IMG/VR virus record: IMGVR_UViG_3300020048_000007
Coordinates: 1 to 64,000 of that record
Reading direction: 5' to 3' (one strand)
Source: a virus
Lineage: Duplodnaviria > Caudoviricetes
DNA length: 64,000 nucleotides
A model generated the notes under the pieces. The model was not told where the DNA came from. It saw only the letters and a list, made by a program, of their open reading frames with translations, and searched no databases. The position numbers and the translations under genes were made by a program. Shown piece by piece: positions 22,063-60,706 of the stretch. The stretch's first letter is position 1; each line of letters starts with the position of its first letter.

Positions 22063-24540
22063 TTACGACAGATTTAATTGTCCGTACACAAACTCATTCA
22101 TCAACGTCATTTGGGTTCTGACATCCATTTGCCTGAGTTTCGCGCCAGGGAACATTTTCACACCATATTTCCCAAAGCTTGTATAGGTGCTGTTAGGAAT
22201 GGTATAGTATGGTGAAGTTATAGATACCGGAGTGGTCAAAGCAGCACTGGCGTCCGTGTTTGGCGGTATCAAAAGCTGATTCCACCAGACCCACACCTGA
22301 TCGTCCCTCACCATAATCTCAATGCGATTCCAGTATTCATCTTGCTGCCCCGCCACAACACTGCCGCCTTCATAAACCACAAAGCCGGGCACATTGGGAG
22401 TCGGCTGCGTACCTACGCCATCATAGGCATCAGCCTGAGTATAGACACTACTCACAGCATACCCTGGAGCGAGACCCCTAATAAGGTCATCGAGAGTTCC
22501 AGCATTATCGTCAACAAAAGCCCGGCCAACATCTAACGAACCGACGCTGACTTGATAGCGAATGATGTTCGTATTAGTGTCTTGGAAAAATTCACACCGG
22601 ACAACACTAGCGCTATAATCCTCGTGCAATAGCTCACAGATATCACCAGTATCGCCCAAGAACGGCATGTTGTCATCTAAACTAGCCACCAGCATCACAC
22701 TGTTCGTTGTCATCGAAGTGCCCGGATTGGGGAACATGACTTTGTGCGCGTAGTTGAAGACTTGATTATACCCGACTTGAGCTGGCAGGACTCTAATAGA
22801 TCCGCGAGGAGGGAGATCCTTAAAAGTCACCCCCGCGACCCGAATGTAATACCGTCCCTTTATGAGCCCGGTCTCTATAACCTCCATATATTGTTCACTA
22901 AAGCTATCGATTTTACTTCTAATGATAAAATCAATAACCGTGGTGCCATCAACATCTGGCCGTCCTATGTCCGCTCTAATCATAGCATTATTGAGCGATT
23001 TCCTATGCCATAAGTAAACAGGGCGCTCATAATAGTTGGACGGAGGGTTAGTTGTGCTCCGAACCACAAGTCCCGGCAGAGTCGAATCAAACACAGCCCT
23101 GTGTTGGTAGGTTACATCAGCCTCTTGGTCAGTAGGGTCGTCTGTTATAGAGTTTACTGCGATATTCATGCTCAGCAATGGGTCATCAAATCCTGTTAGA
23201 CCCCACTCAGCATGCTCAAAATCCCTTATCGCTTCCACTTGTATTTCTGTATTGCTGGATTCTGACGAGGTGTAGAAACCAGCAGTGGCTTCAGATGGTG
23301 GCGTCTCTTTGCGTGCAGTAGAAACGTCTCCAAATTGCACGTGGCCGACCCAGTTCCAGATATAAGACGGGTTTAAAGTCGGCTTCTTATTGAAGAAGTA
23401 GGTCTTCCCAACTCCGTTACTGTAACTCCACAAGTCGACCAATGTTCCTACCGGCAATATATCAACAGCCGCATCTAATGCAACGGTTTTAGGATTCGTT
23501 CCGTTAGTCGCATTTTCTGGATTGTTGTATTGCCATACGTTTTTGGCCGTGAACATCGTGCCAATTGGGTTGGCGTTAAATGTGTCCCAGAATCTGACGT
23601 GGTAGTTGTTGGTTGATAGCAGTTCTGCTGGGTATTCAACTATCACACCCATTTGTTTGGTAAGAGTGTTTCCTTTGTAGAGTATCGCGCCTAGAAGATT
23701 AGGGTCGCTTGCTACTTCAAATTCGTATTTTATCTGGTTACCGTTCGTGTCTTTGCCCATGTACCAGATCATGGATGGGACAATAGCTGTGTCTGATGGC
23801 GGCGAGAATACCCAACCGATGTCGGTGGTGCTGAGATTGTTAGGATCTCTTCTTAAGATCATCTCATGGTAAGCTGAGTTGCTATTGACCGAATTTAGTT
23901 GCCGTTTAAACAGAAATGCCGGATAGTTGGTCTTGTTATTAGTGGTAGCTTCTGGATTTGCTGGGTCAGCTATTGTTGCTTCAGGGAATGTGTATATGCT
24001 TAGTTCACCGTACCCGTTTATGTTCGGAAGTTTGCCAGTTGAGACTGGTGGGCGTATGCCAACTGTGTCTGTTCCGTCTTGAACCCAATAAATCTGGTTT
24101 ACTTGTTCGTTTCTACAGTTCAATGGTATTGGGCTGTCTACTGTGAATCTTACTACGTTGCCAAATCGTTCGAGCGATATAAAGCCTGAGCCAGCAGCTA
24201 AGATAACGTCACCCTGGAGCCAGCCGCCGTCTTCCGGGAACCCTGAGCCTTGGAATCCTAAGACACCGACTCGCATCTGTAAGAGGCTGTCTAATCGGCA
24301 CTTGTCTACTGAGGACATGAGACCTGGTGTGTCGCATGTGGCGGGTGGGATCGGGTCTTCTGCGATGTGGGTGACACCGTGAAAACTTGGGTAGATCACC
24401 TGTGATTCTTTGAAATAAAATGCTCTTTGTTGCAAATCATAAGAGAATCCGGTCGTGACGCCGTTAGGCCCATCTACCGTTATAAAGACACCATCACGCA
24501 GAACATTATCATTATGCTGAGGAAGCTTCGAAATCGCCAT
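22063..24540 (-). CDS. Putative virion structural (tail) protein, 825 aa
   Basis: Contains ATCDTPGLMSSVDKCRLDS, an ATxxxxGLMSxxDKxKLD-type tail-fibre motif; AAGGAG SD. Confidence 0.6.
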   Translation of the reverse strand: MAISKLPQHNDNVLRDGVFITVDGPNGVTTGFSYDLQQRAFYFKESQVIYPSFHGVTHIAEDPIPPATCDTPGLMSSVDKCRLDSLLQMRVGVLGFQGSGFPEDGGWLQGDVILAAGSGFISLERFGNVVRFTVDSPIPLNCRNEQVNQIYWVQDGTDTVGIRPPVSTGKLPNINGYGELSIYTFPEATIADPANPEATTNNKTNYPAFLFKRQLNSVNSNSAYHEMILRRDPNNLSTTDIGWVFSPPSDTAIVPSMIWYMGKDTNGNQIKYEFEVASDPNLLGAILYKGNTLTKQMGVIVEYPAELLSTNNYHVRFWDTFNANPIGTMFTAKNVWQYNNPENATNGTNPKTVALDAAVDILPVGTLVDLWSYSNGVGKTYFFNKKPTLNPSYIWNWVGHVQFGDVSTARKETPPSEATAGFYTSSESSNTEIQVEAIRDFEHAEWGLTGFDDPLLSMNIAVNSITDDPTDQEADVTYQHRAVFDSTLPGLVVRSTTNPPSNYYERPVYLWHRKSLNNAMIRADIGRPDVDGTTVIDFIIRSKIDSFSEQYMEVIETGLIKGRYYIRVAGVTFKDLPPRGSIRVLPAQVGYNQVFNYAHKVMFPNPGTSMTTNSVMLVASLDDNMPFLGDTGDICELLHEDYSASVVRCEFFQDTNTNIIRYQVSVGSLDVGRAFVDDNAGTLDDLIRGLAPGYAVSSVYTQADAYDGVGTQPTPNVPGFVVYEGGSVVAGQQDEYWNRIEIMVRDDQVWVWWNQLLIPPNTDASAALTTPVSITSPYYTIPNSTYTSFGKYGVKMFPGAKLRQMDVRTQMTLMNEFVYGQLNLS

Positions 24541-24561: not shown

Positions 24562-24570
24562 AATAGATTT
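24562..24570 (-). promoter_or_regulatory. Putative phage promoter motif AAATCTATT
   Basis: Upstream of the SD of 24540; same variant as 60698. Confidence 0.5.
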
Positions 24571-24576
24571 GGCTTA

Positions 24577-26205
24577 TTACCATACAGCTAGAAAATCGAT
24601 CACGGAAGTAATCGCATTCCTCTTGTACTCAATCAGATATTCTGGCTTAAATTTAGCCACAATCTCATCCTTCACATTTCTAGGTACAAAGACAATGATT
24701 CTCTCAGCTTTATCATAATGAGACTTTATCTTCTCGATATCAGGAAAAAAGAAATCATGATGCAAAATAGCCCCAACATTCTCACCCATATACTGATTAT
24801 GCTTCAAACCGACAAAATCAGCAAAACCATTGTTCAAAATCTTCTCTATCTTATGACCAGGCAGATACTTGTACTCTAAACCAGCAATAGCAGCAGCCAA
24901 AGCATTATAACCATAACTAGGAGATAGATCAAGAATCGATCCCTTCACACCTAATATCTTAAGAATCGAATAAACAGAGCCGAAATCTCTATAAAACTTA
25001 AACTTACGACCGAATAAAACCTTAGTCTTAGTATCCGCACAAATAAACCGCATAAAATTTCTAAAAGAAAGCTCGGACCGTTTCCTCCTTCGAAGAAACC
25101 TTGCCACAGACCTATACCTTGCTTCGTTATTCAGCTTACTAGCTATCAGAGGGCCAAATGAAAACTTAAAAAAATGCTCAGCAATATAATGTCCAGGAGC
25201 CTCCCTCCCACCTCTGATGGAAGGTTGGAACACCTTATCGATAAAGTACCTGTTGTGATCAGTATTCCTACACTTCTCAAGATCTGCCATAAGCACATCC
25301 ATTGGATGAGTCATCTGCATCCATCTTCTTTCTGAAATCTCAGCTAAGAAAGTATGGACAGCAATTCGCTTTTCAATGGATGTCAAGCCGGTAAAATCCC
25401 GATTTACCTTAACATGGGCAGGATAAGGGCATTCACCCATCATGCCACGACCATAGACGTGTATGATGTTACGGACATTTTTAATAAAGCTACCATGTTC
25501 TTTAATGAAATAAGTCTTATACCTGTTACGGATGGTCCCAGCGTAACGGTATTTCTCAACGATACCAGACCTATATGAAACAAGGAGAGTATACCGCCTG
25601 AATTTAGCATAGCGAACGACAGGCAGCTTAGATAGTTCATGCTGCATAACCCGCATGTATAGAGGAATAGGACAGTCAGTTAGAAACTTCCTATTAAATC
25701 CATACTTGATTGCCCATTGGGTGATGGCATTTGTGCTTACTGACGCAATTTTTGCCATCTCTGATACGGTCATCATCTTGGTAACATAATGCTCATAAAA
25801 CCATTCATAATTATCACAGGGGTTTCTTATTATGATTTTGCGACCAGCTTTGTTACTCACAGTGTAGACAGTTTTTAAAGTAACACCCAATATAGCAGCG
25901 ATCTGTTTTGCGCCATATGTATCCATAGCTGGGACAATCCAGTCTGGATCTTTCCAGTTTACTGGTACGCTGTCTAGATGTTGATACACCTTTGGGGGCT
26001 TTAATACTTTAGGCTCACCGACTTCTATAAGACCACACCGTTTTCTGAGTCGAAATAGGTGTGATTTGTTTATTCTTAATGATTTGGCTATGTCAGCTAT
26101 CTTTAAGTAATTGTATTTGTTAAACCATTTTCTTAAAAGATCATTATCATGCCTTGCTTCTAAATATCCTTCACAGATCTCTTTTTCTATCTTACCGTCT
26201 GCCAT
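24577..26205 (-). CDS. Basic protein with three tandem HTH-like motifs and a degenerate DNA-methyltransferase-like C-terminus
   Basis: LKIADIAKSLRINKSHLFRLRKRCG; YGAKQIAAILGVTLKTVY; EWFYEHYV..MTVSEMAKIASVSTNAITQWAIKYG; SAM-like SILDLSPSYGYNALAAAIAGLEY. Confidence 0.55.
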   Translation of the reverse strand: MADGKIEKEICEGYLEARHDNDLLRKWFNKYNYLKIADIAKSLRINKSHLFRLRKRCGLIEVGEPKVLKPPKVYQHLDSVPVNWKDPDWIVPAMDTYGAKQIAAILGVTLKTVYTVSNKAGRKIIIRNPCDNYEWFYEHYVTKMMTVSEMAKIASVSTNAITQWAIKYGFNRKFLTDCPIPLYMRVMQHELSKLPVVRYAKFRRYTLLVSYRSGIVEKYRYAGTIRNRYKTYFIKEHGSFIKNVRNIIHVYGRGMMGECPYPAHVKVNRDFTGLTSIEKRIAVHTFLAEISERRWMQMTHPMDVLMADLEKCRNTDHNRYFIDKVFQPSIRGGREAPGHYIAEHFFKFSFGPLIASKLNNEARYRSVARFLRRRKRSELSFRNFMRFICADTKTKVLFGRKFKFYRDFGSVYSILKILGVKGSILDLSPSYGYNALAAAIAGLEYKYLPGHKIEKILNNGFADFVGLKHNQYMGENVGAILHHDFFFPDIEKIKSHYDKAERIIVFVPRNVKDEIVAKFKPEYLIEYKRNAITSVIDFLAVW

Positions 26206-27244
26206 TATTTTTAGGTTTCCAGTGATGGACTAATTCATAAGCGGGTTCTATTATATACCTATTATATCGGGGGTCAAAGTATATGATTGACTCTTCTAAG
26301 CCTTCTTCTGGCTCCATCTGTATCTCACCTTCATCAGGTTCAGATGGGTCTTCTGGAGCGTTTCTTTGCGGTGTCTCTGGTCTTTGCGGTTCTACAGGCA
26401 CCGGAGCCGGTTCTGGCGCAGGCCGCTGCGGTCGCCTTTCTAGAGGGTCAGGAGCCGTATTGTCTGCGGCAACGGCTTTAAGCTCGTCATTGGCAGTTTG
26501 TTTTTCGGCTTCTAGCTCTCTTGAAAGCTGTTGAGGTGGCTGTTCTTCCTGCTCAGGCGACACGTAGCCGTCTGGCTCTTTTGCGTCCTGTGCCGTCTGG
26601 GCTATCTTCTGACTTTGTGCATCGGTTCTTGCTTGCTTGATGCGTGCAAAGTTAGCTTTAGCATTCGACACTTCAGGTTCAATGGGCGGTTGCTCTGTAG
26701 GGGGAGCTTGAGCCACAAGCTGAGTCTTCTGATCTAAGGTCTTATCCATCTGAGAAATATCAGTTGGATACTTTGGCATCGCTTGCTGTAATCTTGTTTC
26801 TCGCGTCTTCCTTATCTTATCAAGTCTGGCTTTTGCTAGTTCTTGCCGTGCGGCATCTGGCTCTTTCTTGGGGTATAGCGCAGATTTGTCCACTGCTCGG
26901 ATGTACGATGGATCATAAGTTCTGTAAAATGAGTCGAATATGTCAGGTAAAATCCTTAAGCCACGGTGATACCGGTAGTATAGGTTTTTTGCCTGCATGA
27001 GCGTCGGAAGTGCTCTTCTTAGTCTTTCCCTTTGTCTGTTGTTTAGATAGTTAATATTAACACCGCCGACAAGATTATTGCCGGTCTGCGGGTGGGTGTA
27101 AGCACCAAGTATCAAGACTCTGGGTCTCGGGTCCGTGCGGAATTTATCGTATTGAAAGTTCCATAGTGGCGCTTCACCCTCCTCCTTGAGGATGTATGCA
27201 CCGATTTGGCTTATTTCTATGGTCTGAGCAACAGTTAGTTTCAT
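26192..27244 (-). CDS. T4 gp2 (DNA end protector)-like N-terminal domain + Pro/Glu-rich disordered tail
   Basis: FQYDKFRTDPRPRVLIL...VGGVNINYLNNRQRERLRRAL...FYRTY resembles the gp2 core (D..PL+++...G+NLHYL...R..LL). Confidence 0.45.
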   Translation of the reverse strand: MKLTVAQTIEISQIGAYILKEEGEAPLWNFQYDKFRTDPRPRVLILGAYTHPQTGNNLVGGVNINYLNNRQRERLRRALPTLMQAKNLYYRYHRGLRILPDIFDSFYRTYDPSYIRAVDKSALYPKKEPDAARQELAKARLDKIRKTRETRLQQAMPKYPTDISQMDKTLDQKTQLVAQAPPTEQPPIEPEVSNAKANFARIKQARTDAQSQKIAQTAQDAKEPDGYVSPEQEEQPPQQLSRELEAEKQTANDELKAVAADNTAPDPLERRPQRPAPEPAPVPVEPQRPETPQRNAPEDPSEPDEGEIQMEPEEGLEESIIYFDPRYNRYIIEPAYELVHHWKPKNNGRR

Positions 27245-29157
27245 GCTCTGATTTTTTTCATTTTATGTGCTTGGTAGAGGCGACCTAGATCATCCTGAGG
27301 CACAAAAACCGTCGGTTCAAAGGACTTACTAAGGACCCGCGCCATTGTTAAAGCAGTCTCACTTATCAGTATGCGATCAGTATCATCGACACTTTCTGCA
27401 AAACTTCTATTTTTATACATGGTCGCGACCACGATAAGCTTGGTATAGGCCCTGAGGCCATACTTATTAACAGTTTGGTCAGACATTATCTTGCTGTTGC
27501 CAGCCTCAACCAAATTAGCCCAAGCACTGGGGATACCAAACTCTAACATCTTCTGGGCTTCGTCTCTAAACTCATCTGCTATATCTTTATTGCCCATGAG
27601 AGGCGAACCCTTTAGCCGCCATGCTGAGGTCCATTCGCCTTTCTGTGCTAAATCGCCACCGCTAGCACTTCGATCCTGTTCCTCTTCATCGTCACTATAA
27701 TCTTCAAAATCTGGAATCGGTTCGATCTCTGGATCTTCATAAGGCTTCCACCAGCCCTCAGAATGGCGTGGTGTATTAAGGCTACTTCGCATTTTACCCT
27801 TGCCCGGATAGTTAGCGCAGAGTCCGCCCAAAAGTCTTAGAACACATCTGAATTCCATACTGTCGAAACTTTTTAGAAGGTTTTTTCGCTCAATATGAAG
27901 TTCTTTTGGAAGACTACCTTCTTTGGTAAGCTTCAGGGCTTGGTGCACTTTGTTCGCAGGAATGACAATATTATTTTCCCACTCTATCGGATCAGTGGGA
28001 AGATATTTGCTAGCAACACCATCAAGGTTAAGACAGATCTCAAGCACAGTAAAGAAAGCTGCCTCAGTGGGCGTAGGCTCAGTATTCTTGGATGTACGAG
28101 CCACGAGAGTCTCGGCGGCAGAAAATCCTTCATCACCTATCGGCTTGTCGATTGAAGTGAGTGGTACATTTTTCGTACCACGCGGTGTGCTGATAGCTTG
28201 CATCGACCCTGTCGATAGGCCCATTGTAAGCTCATTGCCTGATTCGATCTCGCCGATTTTTTCTTCTAGCTCTTGTTTTAATGTGCTAATCTGTTCCGTG
28301 TCTTTTGACAATATGGCTTGTCTTAATTCATTCCCGATCTGAAAAATAAACCAGGTATATCTTCCGTATGGGTTGCCTGGGTTTTTATCGTATTTGTTTG
28401 GGCCTTCTTCTTGGTATTCTGGGTCTATTTGATATTGCATGCCTTCAAATGTCGGTGACAATACCGAATCTACGTCGGCGGTTGTTTTCGCAGTGGTTAA
28501 TTTGGTAGCTGCAGTCTTTGCTCTTTTTTCTGCTCTTGTGGTCCCGAAACCACTTATTAATGATTTCTCTAGATCGTTTTTGATCCAGGATATGAAGCCT
28601 GTTGGGTCGCCTCTGGTTCCATCTTTTTTTATTGGGCCTGGGGCACCAGCGTCTATCCCTGGCTTCATTAGCTGTGATAATCTAAGAAGACCGTTCGTAT
28701 ACAGTTCTTGAATTGCTTCTGGGTTGTCGACTTTGTAGGCACGTGCTAGCTTTTTAGCCAGATTTAGAAGAGGGGAATTAGCTGGCCCAAGGATCATTTT
28801 ATAATCTTTATCACCTGCTCTGCCCATATCTCCGGCGTATGCTACTGTTACTTCGTTTTCAGTCCAGACTGGTGCTCTTTCGCCCGGTTCGTAGTCTCTC
28901 GGTGGGGGTGGTTCAAATCCGAGGAGGTATTTTGATGCCCTTGGGTCCCAGGCATCGTAGCTCCATGTGGAGTCTTTTCTCAGAGGTCCGTATGTCTTAT
29001 GCAGGCAATCTTCTGCATAGGATCTGATATAACTTGGGTTAGATGGATCTTTCCACTTTCCGTCGGTTAGGTTCCATGGCTCTCTGTTTTCCCAAGGCGT
29101 GTCTGCCTCTAATATCGTGGCGAGGGCCTTTTGTATTTTATCTTCTAGGATCGACAT
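27241..29157 (-). CDS. Highly diverged sigma70-family RNA polymerase sigma factor, 638 aa, with large insertions
   Basis: Start moved to ATG 29157 (AGGAG SD). Region 2: ANSPLLNLAKKLA...QELYTNGLLRL...GFISWIKNDLEKSL. Region 3.2: PLTSIDKPIGDEGFSAAETL. Region 4: LKSFDSMEFRCVLRLLG...MGNKDIADEF...MSDQTVNKYGLRAYTKL. Confidence 0.7.
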   Translation of the reverse strand: MSILEDKIQKALATILEADTPWENREPWNLTDGKWKDPSNPSYIRSYAEDCLHKTYGPLRKDSTWSYDAWDPRASKYLLGFEPPPPRDYEPGERAPVWTENEVTVAYAGDMGRAGDKDYKMILGPANSPLLNLAKKLARAYKVDNPEAIQELYTNGLLRLSQLMKPGIDAGAPGPIKKDGTRGDPTGFISWIKNDLEKSLISGFGTTRAEKRAKTAATKLTTAKTTADVDSVLSPTFEGMQYQIDPEYQEEGPNKYDKNPGNPYGRYTWFIFQIGNELRQAILSKDTEQISTLKQELEEKIGEIESGNELTMGLSTGSMQAISTPRGTKNVPLTSIDKPIGDEGFSAAETLVARTSKNTEPTPTEAAFFTVLEICLNLDGVASKYLPTDPIEWENNIVIPANKVHQALKLTKEGSLPKELHIERKNLLKSFDSMEFRCVLRLLGGLCANYPGKGKMRSSLNTPRHSEGWWKPYEDPEIEPIPDFEDYSDDEEEQDRSASGGDLAQKGEWTSAWRLKGSPLMGNKDIADEFRDEAQKMLEFGIPSAWANLVEAGNSKIMSDQTVNKYGLRAYTKLIVVATMYKNRSFAESVDDTDRILISETALTMARVLSKSFEPTVFVPQDDLGRLYQAHKMKKIRA

Positions 29158-29240
29158 GCTGGGGAGCTCCTGTGATTTATTGTATCTTTGCGATATTGAT
29201 AAAACGCATGAATCATGCCAAATAAAAAAGGAGGTGCTAA

Positions 29241-29615
29241 TTGAAGAAAGCATTGCTACTGCTAGAAGGATTCGACGATAATGGATTCATCGAAAAGTTC
29301 ACGATAGGATATAAAGAAGACTATAAGACTGTAAGTGCTCCAAATCAATACATCAGAGTGTATGAGTGCTCAGAAGAAATAGAAGACAGAATCATGTCGA
29401 TAGGTGTAGACGAAGCTCAAAACGTGATAGCAAAAGTAGACGACCAATACTACAAGATACTTGATGGGATACAAAACAACCTATTTGTTGTCTTATCAGA
29501 ACTACTACCAGGCATCACAAAGAAATTACAGCTCAGAAAGAATCTTCCGGACACTGGGCTTGATGATGCAGTCAGGGGTAAACTTGAACCTAGTTCCGAT
29601 GAGCCTGATCATTAA
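29241..29615 (+). CDS. Hypothetical protein, 124 aa
   Basis: TTG start with a perfect AGGAGG SD; its 3' end overlaps the convergent GT2 gene by 90 nt. Confidence 0.7.
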   Translation: MKKALLLLEGFDDNGFIEKFTIGYKEDYKTVSAPNQYIRVYECSEEIEDRIMSIGVDEAQNVIAKVDDQYYKILDGIQNNLFVVLSELLPGITKKLQLRKNLPDTGLDDAVRGKLEPSSDEPDH

Positions 29616-60697: not shown

Positions 60698-60706
60698 TAT
60701 AGATTT
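60698..60706 (-). promoter_or_regulatory. Putative phage promoter motif AAATCTATA
   Basis: Upstream of the SD of 60673. Confidence 0.5.

What the first reader, a model, noticed from the sequence alone, without database searches (positions are those of the whole stretch)
27241..29157. Giant, insertion-riddled sigma70-like factor among head-type genes: candidate virion-packaged sigma factor
Seen in sequence (residue 1 = Met at 29157): res 126-201 ANSPLLNLAKKLARAY...QELYTNGLLRL...GID...GFISWIKNDLEKSL; res 332-351 PLTSIDKPIGDEGFSAAETL; res 428-444 LKSFDSMEFRCVLRLLG; res 521-530 MGNKDIADEF; res 558-574 MSDQTVNKYGLRAYTKL. Established: these follow, in order, sigma70 regions 2.1-2.4 (ANLRLVISIAKKY...DLIQEGNIGL...FSTYATWWIRQAI), 3.2 (PISMETPIGDD), 4.1 (LAGLTAREAKVLRMRFG) and 4.2 (TLEEVGKQF-VTRERIRQIEAKALRKL). 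Unusual: 638 aa, an acidic insert of roughly 75 aa between 4.1 and 4.2, and an insert of about 27 aa in the turn of the -35-binding HTH. Both ends carry amphipathic (I/L)xE-type segments (MS-ILE-DK, AT-ILE-AD, FAE-S, LISE-T) resembling T4-type prohead-protease sites, and the neighbours are a gp2-like end protector and acidic scaffold-like genes. Inference: a sigma factor packaged in the head, matured and ejected with the DNA to redirect host RNAP before phage gene expression. Known phage sigmas such as T4 gp55 and SPO1 gp28/gp34 are small and made after infection.
Basis: partly seen in the sequence, partly recalled or inferred. Interest (0 to 1): 0.85.

Follow-up and report, generated by a model that had tools for sequence, protein, structure and literature searches.

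The report
Oversized sigma factor of a huge phage
A widespread freshwater giant phage that has no RNA polymerase of its own encodes a 638-residue, very divergent sigma-type factor that most likely redirects the host polymerase. It may also be carried inside the virion, which no known sigma factor is, but that part is unproven.

Summary

**Sigma call: supported by independent lines.**
- Some relatives hit TIGR02937 sigma70-ECF (best 2.6e-6) and Pfam Sigma70_r2/r4.
- AlphaFold models give about 10 sigma-domain-2 and about 13 sigma-domain-4 matches among the top 50 of 48,161 PDB chains.
- A conserved but disordered linker sits where region 3.2 should be.
- A co-fold with E. coli beta' clamp helices scored 0.52 against 0.03 for controls (weak support).

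**Lineage.** The family (68 cluster representatives) is absent from Pfam, PHROGs and 50,697 GenBank phages. It is single-copy in four huge-phage contigs that lack any detectable RNA polymerase.

**Packaging: unproven, but not baseless.**
- The three best-conserved (L/I)xE motifs flank the sigma core.
- A T4 gp21-type prohead protease is present.
- The translationally coupled downstream gene is gp2-like (P 9.5e-5).
- Against it, the head module lies 67 kb away, no other ORF shares the leader, and terminal (L/I)xE motifs also occur in non-virion proteins.

The scan had not noted this family on other DNA.

The parts
27241..29157 (-). Sigma-like gene, 638 aa (P0001). It is the first gene of a conserved co-directional module.
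   Evidence: start confirmed by relatives; single copy in four genomes
29107..29157 (-). N-terminal 17-aa amphipathic leader MSILEDKIQKALATILE, ending in ILE|A. Candidate propeptide or capsid-targeting-like segment.
   Evidence: 45 of 53 family members have [LIVMF]xE at residues 10-21. It is a helix followed by a low-confidence linker in the model.
28783..29070 (-). Family-specific N-terminal domain (res 30-125; WKDP..Y.R..AED.L..T.GPL ... PG..AP.WT..EV). No known counterpart was identified.
   Evidence: Conserved in A2; pLDDT 87-95
28495..28782 (-). Sigma domain 2-like segment (res 126-221), regions 2.1-2.4, with a 13-aa lineage-specific loop at about 172-184.
   Evidence: hhalign P 0.0008-0.0018. 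PF04542 hits in 8 of 55 relatives. VIA matches to SigB, RpoS, SigK, sigma32, sigma70, SigE and sigma28, Z 5.2-6.6.
28222..28494 (-). Helical segment (res 222-312) in the position of sigma domain 3.
   Evidence: A small E. coli sigma HMM spans domains 2-3 in relative P0009 (E 6e-5), and region 3 matches relatives P0027 and P0017. On its own this segment attracts generic four-helix-bundle matches.
28075..28221 (-). Conserved but disordered linker (res 313-361; G.STG..QAIST.R....S.D.P.GD), the region 3.2-like 'finger'.
   Evidence: pLDDT under 50 despite near-invariant G313, G317, A321 and S335. It aligns to RpoD PISMETPIGDD.
27409..28074 (-). Sigma domain 4-like module (res 362-583). The helices are 365-385, 433-447, 523-540 and 560-582, separated by three inserts.
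   Evidence: Domain model pLDDT 86.8, pTM 0.85. About 13 of the top 50 VIA matches are sigma region 4, for example 5fgm_A 65/65 aligned at rmsd 2.2 and 8jzt_A 57/57 at rmsd 1.6.
27592..27816 (-). 75-aa insert between helix 4.1 and the HTH (res 448-522). It holds the family's most conserved block, NYPGKG..R..PR..GWW.P.EDPEIEP.
   Evidence: pLDDT 94-98
27640..27708 (-). Acidic lineage-specific stretch (res 484-506) inside that insert.
   Evidence: Alignment occupancy under 20%; low pLDDT
27244..27408 (-). C-terminal tail (res 584-638) with conserved FAE (586-588) and ISE (598-600).
   Evidence: These are the second and third most conserved [LIVMF]xE motifs of the family, at 70% and 77%.
29158..29240 (-). 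Upstream non-coding stretch with an AGGAG ribosome-binding site. The promoter is not identified and there is no copy of the AAATMTAT motif.
26192..27244 (-). Downstream gene 2 (350 aa, P0075). Its N-terminal domain is T4 gp2-like (DNA end protector), followed by an acidic P/Q/E-rich tail. It overlaps the sigma-like gene's stop by 4 nt (ATGA).
   Evidence: Atlas score 0.88 with 172 shared features to a PF26869 Phage_T4_gp2 cluster. hhalign P 9.5e-5 against 0.2-0.8 for 16 other T4 proteins. It is adjacent to the sigma-like gene in all relatives.
24577..26205 (-). Gene 3 (542 aa, P0074): a basic protein with multiple HTH motifs. It overlaps gene 2 by 14 nt.
   Evidence: Sub-threshold HTH_17, HTH_23 and HTH_29 hits, and phrog_8446. 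Conserved synteny.
22063..24540 (-). Gene 4 (825 aa, P0073): a conserved beta-rich protein of unknown function. It carries an intein in one relative.

Best explanation
The gene encodes a highly divergent member of the sigma70 family. The order of parts is:
- a short N-terminal leader;
- a family-specific domain;
- a sigma domain 2;
- a helical domain in the position of domain 3;
- a conserved flexible region 3.2-type linker;
- a sigma domain 4, whose four helices are interrupted by three inserts.

The phage lineage has T4-type head genes and no recognisable RNA polymerase. The protein therefore most likely binds the host core RNA polymerase (domain 2 on the beta' clamp helices, domain 4 on the beta flap) and directs it to phage promoters.

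Shown: homology and fold of domains 2 and 4, the domain order, conservation, single-copy status, and coupling to a gp2-like gene.

Inferred: core binding, promoter recognition, and the time and route of action. The route could be synthesis after infection or delivery in the virion.
For: - **Sequence.** hhalign of the 55-member profile against E. coli sigmas gives one hit, regions 2.1-2.4, P 0.0018/0.0008. Single sigmas give P 0.007-0.02 on the same segment, against 0.06-0.85 for 17 T4 controls. TIGR02937 matches 5 relatives (best 2.6e-6), FliA/WhiG 3 and SigBFG 2. Pfam Sigma70_r2 matches 8 of 55, and Sigma70_r4_2 (7e-4) and GerE match single members. A five-sequence E. coli sigma HMM hits relative P0009 residues 121-291 at E 6e-5.
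- **Structure.** The full model has pLDDT 79.7. Sigma domain 2 of SigB, RpoS, SigK, sigma32, sigma70, SigE, sigma28 and pro-sigmaK appear among the top 50 of 48,161 chains, Z 5.2-6.6. The C-terminal domain model (pLDDT 86.8, pTM 0.85) gives about 13 region 4 matches that cover whole sigma-4 domains at rmsd 1.6-2.5 A.
- **Language-model neighbours.** At least 17 of the 100 nearest clusters carry Sigma70_r2.
- **Co-fold.** Residues 95-325 with E. coli beta' 250-320 scored 0.52, best of 3 controls 0.03, verdict 'weak support'. That mark was reached by 58 of 80 solved complexes and 2 of 110 mismatched pairs. At 0.60 or under it was reached by only 7 of those 80 and by both mismatches. The runs agree in at least 78% of contacts, and the partner's pLDDT is at least 64.
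- **Context.** No Rpb1, Rpb2 or T7-type polymerase was found in four contigs, one of them rated 100% complete by CheckV. The gene is single-copy in all four. T4-type jumbo phages are reported to rely on phage sigmas and host polymerase (PMC7824862).
Against: - P0001 itself has no hit in Pfam, PHROGs, NCBIfam or PDB sequences.
- Foldseek finds nothing significant.
- All structural Z-scores are below 7, a range the tool warns is common for helical proteins.
- The sequence signal for region 4 is not significant.
- In the hhalign register, the region 2.3 aromatic residues used by group 1-3 sigmas to melt the -10 element map to N194/D195 and are not conserved in the family.
- A 19-aa insert sits between the two HTH helices.
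- No cognate promoter motif was identified.
- The co-fold pass is in the weak band, and the host is unknown.
Confidence: 0.62

Rival explanations
1. Packaged sigma. This refines the best explanation rather than replacing it. The protein is targeted into the prohead by its N-terminal leader and trimmed at (L/I)xE sites at both ends by the gp21-type protease. It is then ejected with the DNA, together with the gp2-like protein, to programme host polymerase before any phage gene is expressed.
For: - The three most conserved [LIVMF]xE motifs of the 53-sequence family are at residues 15-17, 586-588 and 598-600, just outside the sigma core (79%, 70% and 77%). No other L/I-x-E position exceeds 17%.
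- 45 of 53 members have a leader that ends this way.
- A Peptidase_S77 (T4 gp21-type) protease is present in all four genomes.
- The phage's own MCP has SMILE|DQ about 32 aa before LVGVQPM.
- gp21 cleaves after L/I-X-E. Short N-terminal capsid-targeting sequences load T4 internal proteins, and Alt is trimmed at both termini (PMC9026906).
- T4 IPI starts with a 19-aa leader ending ITE (the cleavage position is from my own knowledge).
- The next gene is translationally coupled and gp2-like, with conserved adjacency down to 25% identity.
Against: - There are no virion proteomics and no homologue in any isolated phage.
- No other ORF of the contig shares the leader.
- The head module is 67 kb or more away.
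- The motif count is at chance level.
- 17 of 78 conserved protein families, including ribonucleotide reductase, also have a fully conserved terminal (L/I)xE.
- With L/I only and full conservation across the four genomes, the sigma-like protein itself shows no site.
- Site 598-600 lies inside a well-packed helix.
Confidence: 0.3
2. Sigma-derived decoy or regulator. The protein keeps the core-binding surfaces of a sigma but no longer recognises or melts promoters. It occupies host core polymerase, or tethers another factor to it through the conserved NYPGKG...EDPEIEP insert, to shut off host transcription or to assist another sigma.
For: - The melting aromatics of region 2.3 are not conserved.
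- The HTH is interrupted.
- The best-conserved block is a non-sigma insert in domain 4, at the place where the beta-flap and anti-sigma contacts lie (the location of those contacts is from general knowledge of sigma-4).
- The complete relative also has a canonical 290-aa sigma.
Against: - The recognition-helix pattern S..TV......A..KL is retained, with K573 nearly invariant.
- ECF sigmas and T4 gp55 also lack the group 1 aromatic set (general knowledge).
- The canonical sigma was found in only one of four contigs.
Confidence: 0.12
3. Not a transcription factor. It is a helical virion or assembly protein (for example adaptor- or neck-like) whose resemblance to sigma domains is convergent.
For: About 13 of the top 50 matches of the C-terminal model are phage head-to-tail adaptor or neck helical bundles, Z 4.0-5.1. 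All Z-scores are modest. The neighbours include tail-fibre-like genes.
Against: - The adaptor matches have rmsd of about 4 A, against 1.6-2.5 A for sigma-4.
- Independent sequence-level hits to sigma models do not fit this reading.
- The correct N-to-C order of domains 2, 3.2 and 4 does not fit it either.
- Language-model neighbours are sigma families.
Confidence: 0.06

Closest known systems
Bacterial sigma70 family, groups 3-4 (FliA/WhiG, SigB/F/G, ECF; TIGR02937)
   Same: The domain 2 sequence motifs match (L..A..ARxY, DLY.NG...L, F.S...). The domain order is the same and a region 3.2-type linker is present. Domain 4 has a four-helix fold with an HTH.
   Different: It is 2-3 times longer. 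It has an extra N-terminal leader and domain. Three inserts sit inside domain 4: about 45 aa, 75 aa (conserved and ordered) and 19 aa in the HTH turn. The protein itself matches no curated model. The group 1-3 melting aromatics are not conserved.
Phage sigma factors: T4 gp55, SPO1 gp28/gp34, and RpoD-like sigmas of T4-type jumbo phages (PMC7824862)
   Same: A phage-encoded specificity factor for host core polymerase, in a phage without its own polymerase.
   Different: Those are small (gp55 has essentially domain 2 only) or close to cellular sigmas. None has this insert architecture or a conserved N-terminal leader. No sequence similarity to any GenBank phage was detected.
T4 head-internal, ejected proteins (IPI-III, Alt) with capsid-targeting sequences cleaved by gp21
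   Same: A short N-terminal amphipathic leader ends in (L/I)xE. There are candidate sites at both termini, as in Alt. A gp21-type protease is in the genome. The predicted role is to act on host transcription at entry, as Alt does.
   Different: There is no homology, only a motif-level analogy. Presence in the virion and cleavage are untested. The leader is not shared with other proteins of the phage.
Bacillus pro-sigmaE / pro-sigmaK
   Same: A sigma factor with a short N-terminal pro-sequence whose removal would activate or release it. pro-sigmaK appears among the structural matches.
   Different: Those are cleaved by dedicated membrane proteases during sporulation. Here the only candidate protease is the prohead protease, and cleavage is hypothetical.
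AR9 gp226 / phiKZ gp68 promoter-specificity subunits of phage multisubunit polymerases
   Same: A divergent phage-specific factor that confers specificity on a multisubunit polymerase.
   Different: Those work with phage-encoded polymerases. No polymerase genes were found here, and no similarity to them was found.

Membership tests
sigma70 family | Domain 2 (regions 2.1-2.4) homologous to known sigmas | tested here: met
   hhalign P 0.0018/0.0008, the only hit and in the correct register. Controls give P 0.06-0.85. PF04542 matches 8 of 55 relatives and TIGR02937 matches 5 (best 2.6e-6). About 10 sigma-2 structures are in the top 50, Z 5.2-6.6.
sigma70 family | Domain 4 with a helix-turn-helix (regions 4.1-4.2) | tested here: met
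   Met at structure level. About 13 region 4 domains are in the top 50, fully covered at rmsd 1.6-2.5 A. At sequence level there are only single-member hits (Sigma70_r4_2 7e-4, GerE 6.5e-4), and the signal is not significant for this protein (P 0.28-0.57).
sigma70 family | Order domain 2 - (3) - flexible 3.2 linker - domain 4 | tested here: met
   The extended hhalign alignment places PLTSIDKPIGDE on RpoD PISMETPIGDD. The linker 313-361 is conserved but has pLDDT under 50.
sigma70 family | Binds core polymerase through the beta' clamp helices | tested here: inconclusive
   Co-fold score 0.52 against best control 0.03, verdict 'weak support'. The mark was reached by 58 of 80 solved complexes and 2 of 110 mismatches, but passes at 0.60 or under are more often wrong than right unless the guess was likely beforehand. 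Contact agreement is at least 78% and the partner's pLDDT at least 64. An E. coli partner was used and the host is unknown.
sigma70 family | Region 2.3 aromatic residues for -10 melting (a feature of groups 1-3, not of ECF sigmas or gp55) | tested here: not met
   In the hhalign register, RpoD W433/W434 map to N194/D195 and Y430 maps to W191, which is not conserved in the family.
sigma70 family | Promoter-specific initiation with core polymerase | not testable with these tools
   Needs in vitro transcription. No cognate promoter motif was found.
T4-type capsid-targeted, gp21-processed internal proteins | N-terminal targeting leader ending in L/I-x-E | tested here: inconclusive
   The motif is present and conserved in 45 of 53 members. 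The control shows that such terminal motifs also occur in non-virion proteins, and the leader is not shared with other ORFs.
T4-type capsid-targeted, gp21-processed internal proteins | gp21-type prohead protease encoded by the phage | tested here: met
   Peptidase_S77 is above its cut-off in all four genomes. In G000 it lies at contig 102880-103347, and it also matches phrog_207.
T4-type capsid-targeted, gp21-processed internal proteins | Found in the virion in processed form | not testable with these tools
   No isolate exists and no proteome is available.
T4 gp2 DNA end protector (neighbouring gene 26192-27244) | Homology to gp2 | tested here: met
   hhalign P 9.5e-5 over 62-64 columns to gp2 residues 135-211, against P 0.2-0.8 for 16 other T4 proteins. 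The atlas cluster carrying PF26869 scores 0.88 with 172 shared features. Only the C-terminal half of gp2 is matched, and there is no direct tblastn or phmmer hit.

The most novel reading that the evidence does not exclude
A sigma factor delivered with the genome. The protein is loaded into the prohead through its conserved 14-19-aa leader and trimmed at conserved (L/I)xE sites on both sides of the sigma core by the gp21-type protease. It is then ejected together with the co-translated gp2-like end protector. The incoming DNA would therefore meet a host polymerase that has already been reprogrammed, before any phage gene is expressed. This would be a third route to immediate-early transcription, beside host sigma70 promoters (as in T4) and packaged polymerases (as in N4 and phiKZ).
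Probability: 0.3. Interest if true: 0.85.

Novelty: new variant of a known kind. Interest (0 to 1): 0.62.

Why it matters
Huge phages without their own polymerase must capture the host enzyme, yet their transcription factors are mostly unannotated.

This family is invisible to Pfam, PHROGs and NCBIfam for the window's protein. It is conserved, single-copy and syntenic in a freshwater huge-phage lineage whose DNA appears in metagenomes of 13 or more studies.

It extends what the sigma70 fold is known to tolerate. Domain 4 is split by three inserts, one of which is the most conserved part of the protein. That gives a concrete candidate for the factor that sets this lineage's promoter specificity.

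If the packaging reading is right, this would be the first virion-borne sigma factor. A single virion proteome would test it.

Tried and rejected
- **Direct family and sequence searches with P0001.** Pfam, PHROGs, NCBIfam and PDB sequences gave nothing.
- **Megablast and tblastn against 50,697 GenBank phages.** P0001, P0009, P0024 and the gp2-like domain gave nothing.
- **Foldseek.** The whole model against PDB and AFDB clusters, and the C-terminal model against PDB, gave no match at E <= 0.001. The multi-insert architecture probably defeats it.
- **Profile of the family against PDB sequences.** It returned only designed helical proteins at E >= 0.1.
- **Phage multisubunit or T7-type polymerase as the partner.** None was found. 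This rejects the AR9 gp226 / phiKZ gp68 analogy.
- **A shared capsid-targeting leader in other ORFs of the contig.** The leader HMM found only the gene itself.
- **The AAAT(A/C)TAT 'promoter' motif.** It occurs 10 times against 8.9 expected in the window, and none lies upstream of this gene. CAAAT[ACT]TA lies 15-43 nt upstream of a few genes but is not enriched.
- **Conserved terminal (L/I)xE as a discriminator of virion proteins.** The genome-wide control showed it is not specific.
- **First attempt to find viral loci with the full alignment.** It failed for lack of a conserved block; a sub-alignment worked.
- **PF26869.** It is not in the local Pfam copy.
- **Metatranscriptome contigs.** They lie on the gene, but they cannot prove transcription or show its timing.


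Full report
**1. The observation**

The minus-strand ORF 27241-29157 translates into 638 residues without a stop. The mechanical ORF list extends it to 29253 (670 aa). Close and distant relatives all start at the MSILE-type methionine, and an AGGAG ribosome-binding site precedes 29157.

The window is the first 64 kb of a 231,672-bp IMG/VR virus contig, rated 64% complete.

**2. Is it a sigma factor?**

The protein itself has no match in Pfam, PHROGs, NCBIfam or PDB sequences. An exhaustive HMMER search found 68 cluster representatives, 44 of them at E <= 1e-30. I aligned 55 near-full-length members as A2. Several lines of evidence converge.

- **(a) Profile comparison.** A profile-profile comparison of A2 with an alignment of E. 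coli RpoD, RpoS, RpoH, FliA and RpoE returns one hit only. P is 0.0018, or 0.0008 with sub-alignments. Single sigmas give P 0.007-0.02 on the same segment, and 17 unrelated T4 proteins give 0.06-0.85. With a looser setting the alignment runs on to place PLTSIDKPIGDE on RpoD PISMETPIGDD, which is region 3.2.
- **(b) Family models.** Scanning every family member on its own, 8 of 55 touch Pfam Sigma70_r2. Single members touch Sigma70_r4_2 (7e-4), GerE and Sigma70_r4. In NCBIfam, TIGR02937 sigma70-ECF matches five members (best 2.6e-6), FliA/WhiG three and SigB/F/G two. A crude HMM built from only five E. coli sigmas hits relative P0009 at residues 121-291, E 6e-5.
- **(c) Whole-protein structure.** The AlphaFold model has mean pLDDT 79.7. 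Foldseek finds nothing. An exhaustive structural alignment against 48,161 PDB representatives puts domain 2 of SigB, RpoS, SigK, sigma32, sigma70, SigE, sigma28 and pro-sigmaK in the top 50 (Z 5.2-6.6), and two region 4 domains as well.
- **(d) C-terminal domain structure.** Residues 358-615 folded alone give a compact domain (pLDDT 86.8, pTM 0.85). About 13 of its top 50 matches are sigma region 4 domains, covered end to end: 5fgm_A 65/65 at rmsd 2.2 A, 8jzt_A 57/57 at 1.6 A, and 4g6d_A 62/62 at 2.1 A.
- **(e) Language-model neighbours.** At least 17 of the 100 nearest clusters by protein-language-model features carry Sigma70_r2.

All Z-scores are modest. A second group of matches (phage adaptor and neck helical bundles, Z 4-5, rmsd about 4 A) shows that the fold evidence alone would not be enough. 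The sequence-level region 4 signal is not significant for this protein. The agreement of independent methods, and the correct order of parts, is what makes the call. I put homology to the sigma70 family at about 0.8.

**3. Anatomy**

| Residues | Part | Evidence |
|---|---|---|
| 1-17 | Amphipathic leader | |
| 18-33 | Low-confidence linker | |
| 30-125 | Conserved family-specific domain | |
| 126-221 | Sigma domain 2, with a 13-aa lineage-specific loop | |
| 222-312 | Helices in the place of domain 3 | |
| 313-361 | Linker that is strongly conserved (G313, G317, A321, S335) yet disordered, as expected of a region 3.2 finger that orders only in holoenzyme | |
| 362-583 | Domain 4 | |
| 584-638 | C-terminal tail | |

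Domain 4 is built from helices 365-385, 433-447, 523-540 and 560-582.

Only residues 484-506 are acidic and lineage-specific. The remainder, NYPGKG..R..PR..GWW.P.EDPEIEP, is the most conserved and best-ordered block of the whole family.

The insert between the two HTH helices is about 19 aa.

In the hhalign register, the aromatic residues that group 1-3 sigmas use for -10 melting are not conserved. This is a caveat for function.

**4. Partner**

No Rpb1-, Rpb2- or T7-type polymerase is detectable in this contig or in three related contigs. One of those is a 408-kb record rated 100% complete. The head genes are T4-type: phrog_138 MCP, a gp21-type protease and a gp20-type portal. That matches the class of jumbo phages reported to lack polymerases and to rely on phage sigmas (PMC7824862).

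A co-fold of residues 95-325 with E. coli beta' 250-320 scored 0.52, against 0.03 for the best of three controls, with the verdict 'weak support'.

- The mark was reached by 58 of 80 solved complexes and 2 of 110 mismatched pairs.
- At 0.60 or under it was reached by only 7 of the 80 and by both mismatches.
- The runs agree in at least 78% of contacts, and the partner's pLDDT is at least 64.

The family is single-copy in all four genomes. A canonical 290-aa sigma exists in the complete relative but was not found in the other three, which are incomplete.

**5. Context**

The gene opens a conserved co-directional module: GT2 glycosyltransferase, then a small divergent ORF, then the sigma-like gene, gene 2, gene 3 and gene 4. 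The module is retained in relatives down to 25% identity.

- **Gene 2 (26192-27244)** overlaps the sigma-like stop codon by ATGA. Its N-terminal domain is gp2-like. The atlas score is 0.88, with 172 shared features, to a Phage_T4_gp2 cluster. hhalign against T4 gp2 gives P 9.5e-5, while 16 other T4 proteins give 0.2-0.8. T4 gp2 protects injected DNA ends (record annotation). No other gp2 match exists in the four genomes.
- **Gene 3** is a basic multi-HTH protein.
- **Gene 4** is an 825-aa conserved beta-rich protein of unknown function. It carries an intein in one relative.

The statement 'among head-type genes' is not correct. MCP, protease, a 1088-aa acidic core-like protein and the portal lie at 96-109 kb of the contig.

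**6. Packaging**

*Points in favour.*
- gp21 cleaves after L/I-X-E. Ten-residue N-terminal capsid-targeting sequences load T4 internal proteins, and Alt is trimmed at both ends (PMC9026906).
- Across 53 family members, the three most conserved [LIVMF]xE motifs are at 15-17 (79%), 598-600 (77%) and 586-588 (70%), on either side of the sigma core. No other L/I-x-E position exceeds 17%.
- 45 of 53 members carry a leader of the form M..L..RLN.RL..I.E.
- The phage's MCP has SMILE|DQ at the place expected for a gp23-type maturation site.
- Gene 2 has its own conserved sites at 19-21 and near its C-terminus, and gene 4 has one at 59-61.

*Points against.*
- The total motif count in P0001 is at chance level, 7 against 7.7.
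- No other ORF shares the leader.
- In a control over 78 protein families shared by the four genomes, 17 have a fully conserved terminal (L/I)xE. These include ribonucleotide reductase. Under that strict four-genome criterion the sigma-like protein itself shows none.
- Site 598-600 lies in a packed helix.
- No isolate or proteome exists.

I therefore rate packaging at about 0.3. It is a legitimate hypothesis that can be tested cheaply, not a finding.

**7. Occurrence**

Near-identical DNA is present in freshwater and lake metagenomes of at least 13 studies beyond the likely source. Short contigs from four metatranscriptome libraries lie on the gene, on gene 2 and on gene 4. This does not prove transcription.

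**8. Verdict**

This is a new, structurally unusual branch of the sigma70 family in uncultivated huge phages: a new variant of a known kind. The packaged-sigma idea remains open, with some circumstantial support.

Noticed in passing
window 26192-27244 (-): The gp2-like N-terminal domain is fused to a roughly 200-aa acidic Pro/Gln/Glu-rich tail. Fully conserved (L/I)xE motifs lie at residues 19-21 and near the C-terminus in five relatives. Only the C-terminal half of T4 gp2 is matched.
   Followed up: partly
window 22063-24540 (-); L007 7192-10248: An 825-aa beta-rich protein, 63-64% identical among relatives, has no family or PDB match. The 25%-identity lineage has a 1231-aa version with weak Vint/Intein_splicing hits, which suggests an essential protein. 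A conserved HIAE|DP lies at residues 58-62.
   Followed up: partly
window 29241-29615 (+): A 124-aa ORF with a strong AAGGAGGTG ribosome-binding site and a TTG start is divergent from the sigma-like gene. It overlaps the 3' end of the GT2 gene by about 90 nt, and the same ORF is called in relatives' contigs.
   Followed up: no
G000 contig 103473-106739 (-), L017 7473-10739: A 1088-aa very acidic, low-complexity protein lies between the portal and the prohead protease. It has 11 fully conserved (L/I)xE sites and is a likely scaffold or core protein that is heavily processed.
   Followed up: partly
G000 contig 96063-97649 (-), L017 63-1649: A T4 gp23-type major capsid protein has a candidate maturation site SMILE|DQ about 32 aa before LVGVQPM.
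   Followed up: partly
G001 contig 355850-356722 (-), L011 988-1860: A canonical 290-aa sigma70-type factor (Sigma70_r2 E 1.8e-15) occurs in the complete 408-kb relative, about 18 kb from its sigma-like gene. It was not found in the other three contigs.
   Followed up: partly
window 24563-24570, 60699-60706; contig 106760, 140553, 169995: CAAAT[ACT]TA lies 15-43 nt upstream of several start codons (the 825-aa gene, the 1088-aa core gene and others). It is not enriched overall, and it is absent upstream of the sigma-like gene.
   Followed up: partly
G000 contig, intergenic regions: The words GGTTCTGG and CAGAACCA are about 8-fold enriched in intergenic DNA, which points to a repeated intergenic element.
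   Followed up: no
G000 contig 101118-102680 and 108735-110195: Two HNH/homing-endonuclease-like genes (phrog_559, phrog_3339) are inserted within the head module, next to the protease and the portal.
   Followed up: no
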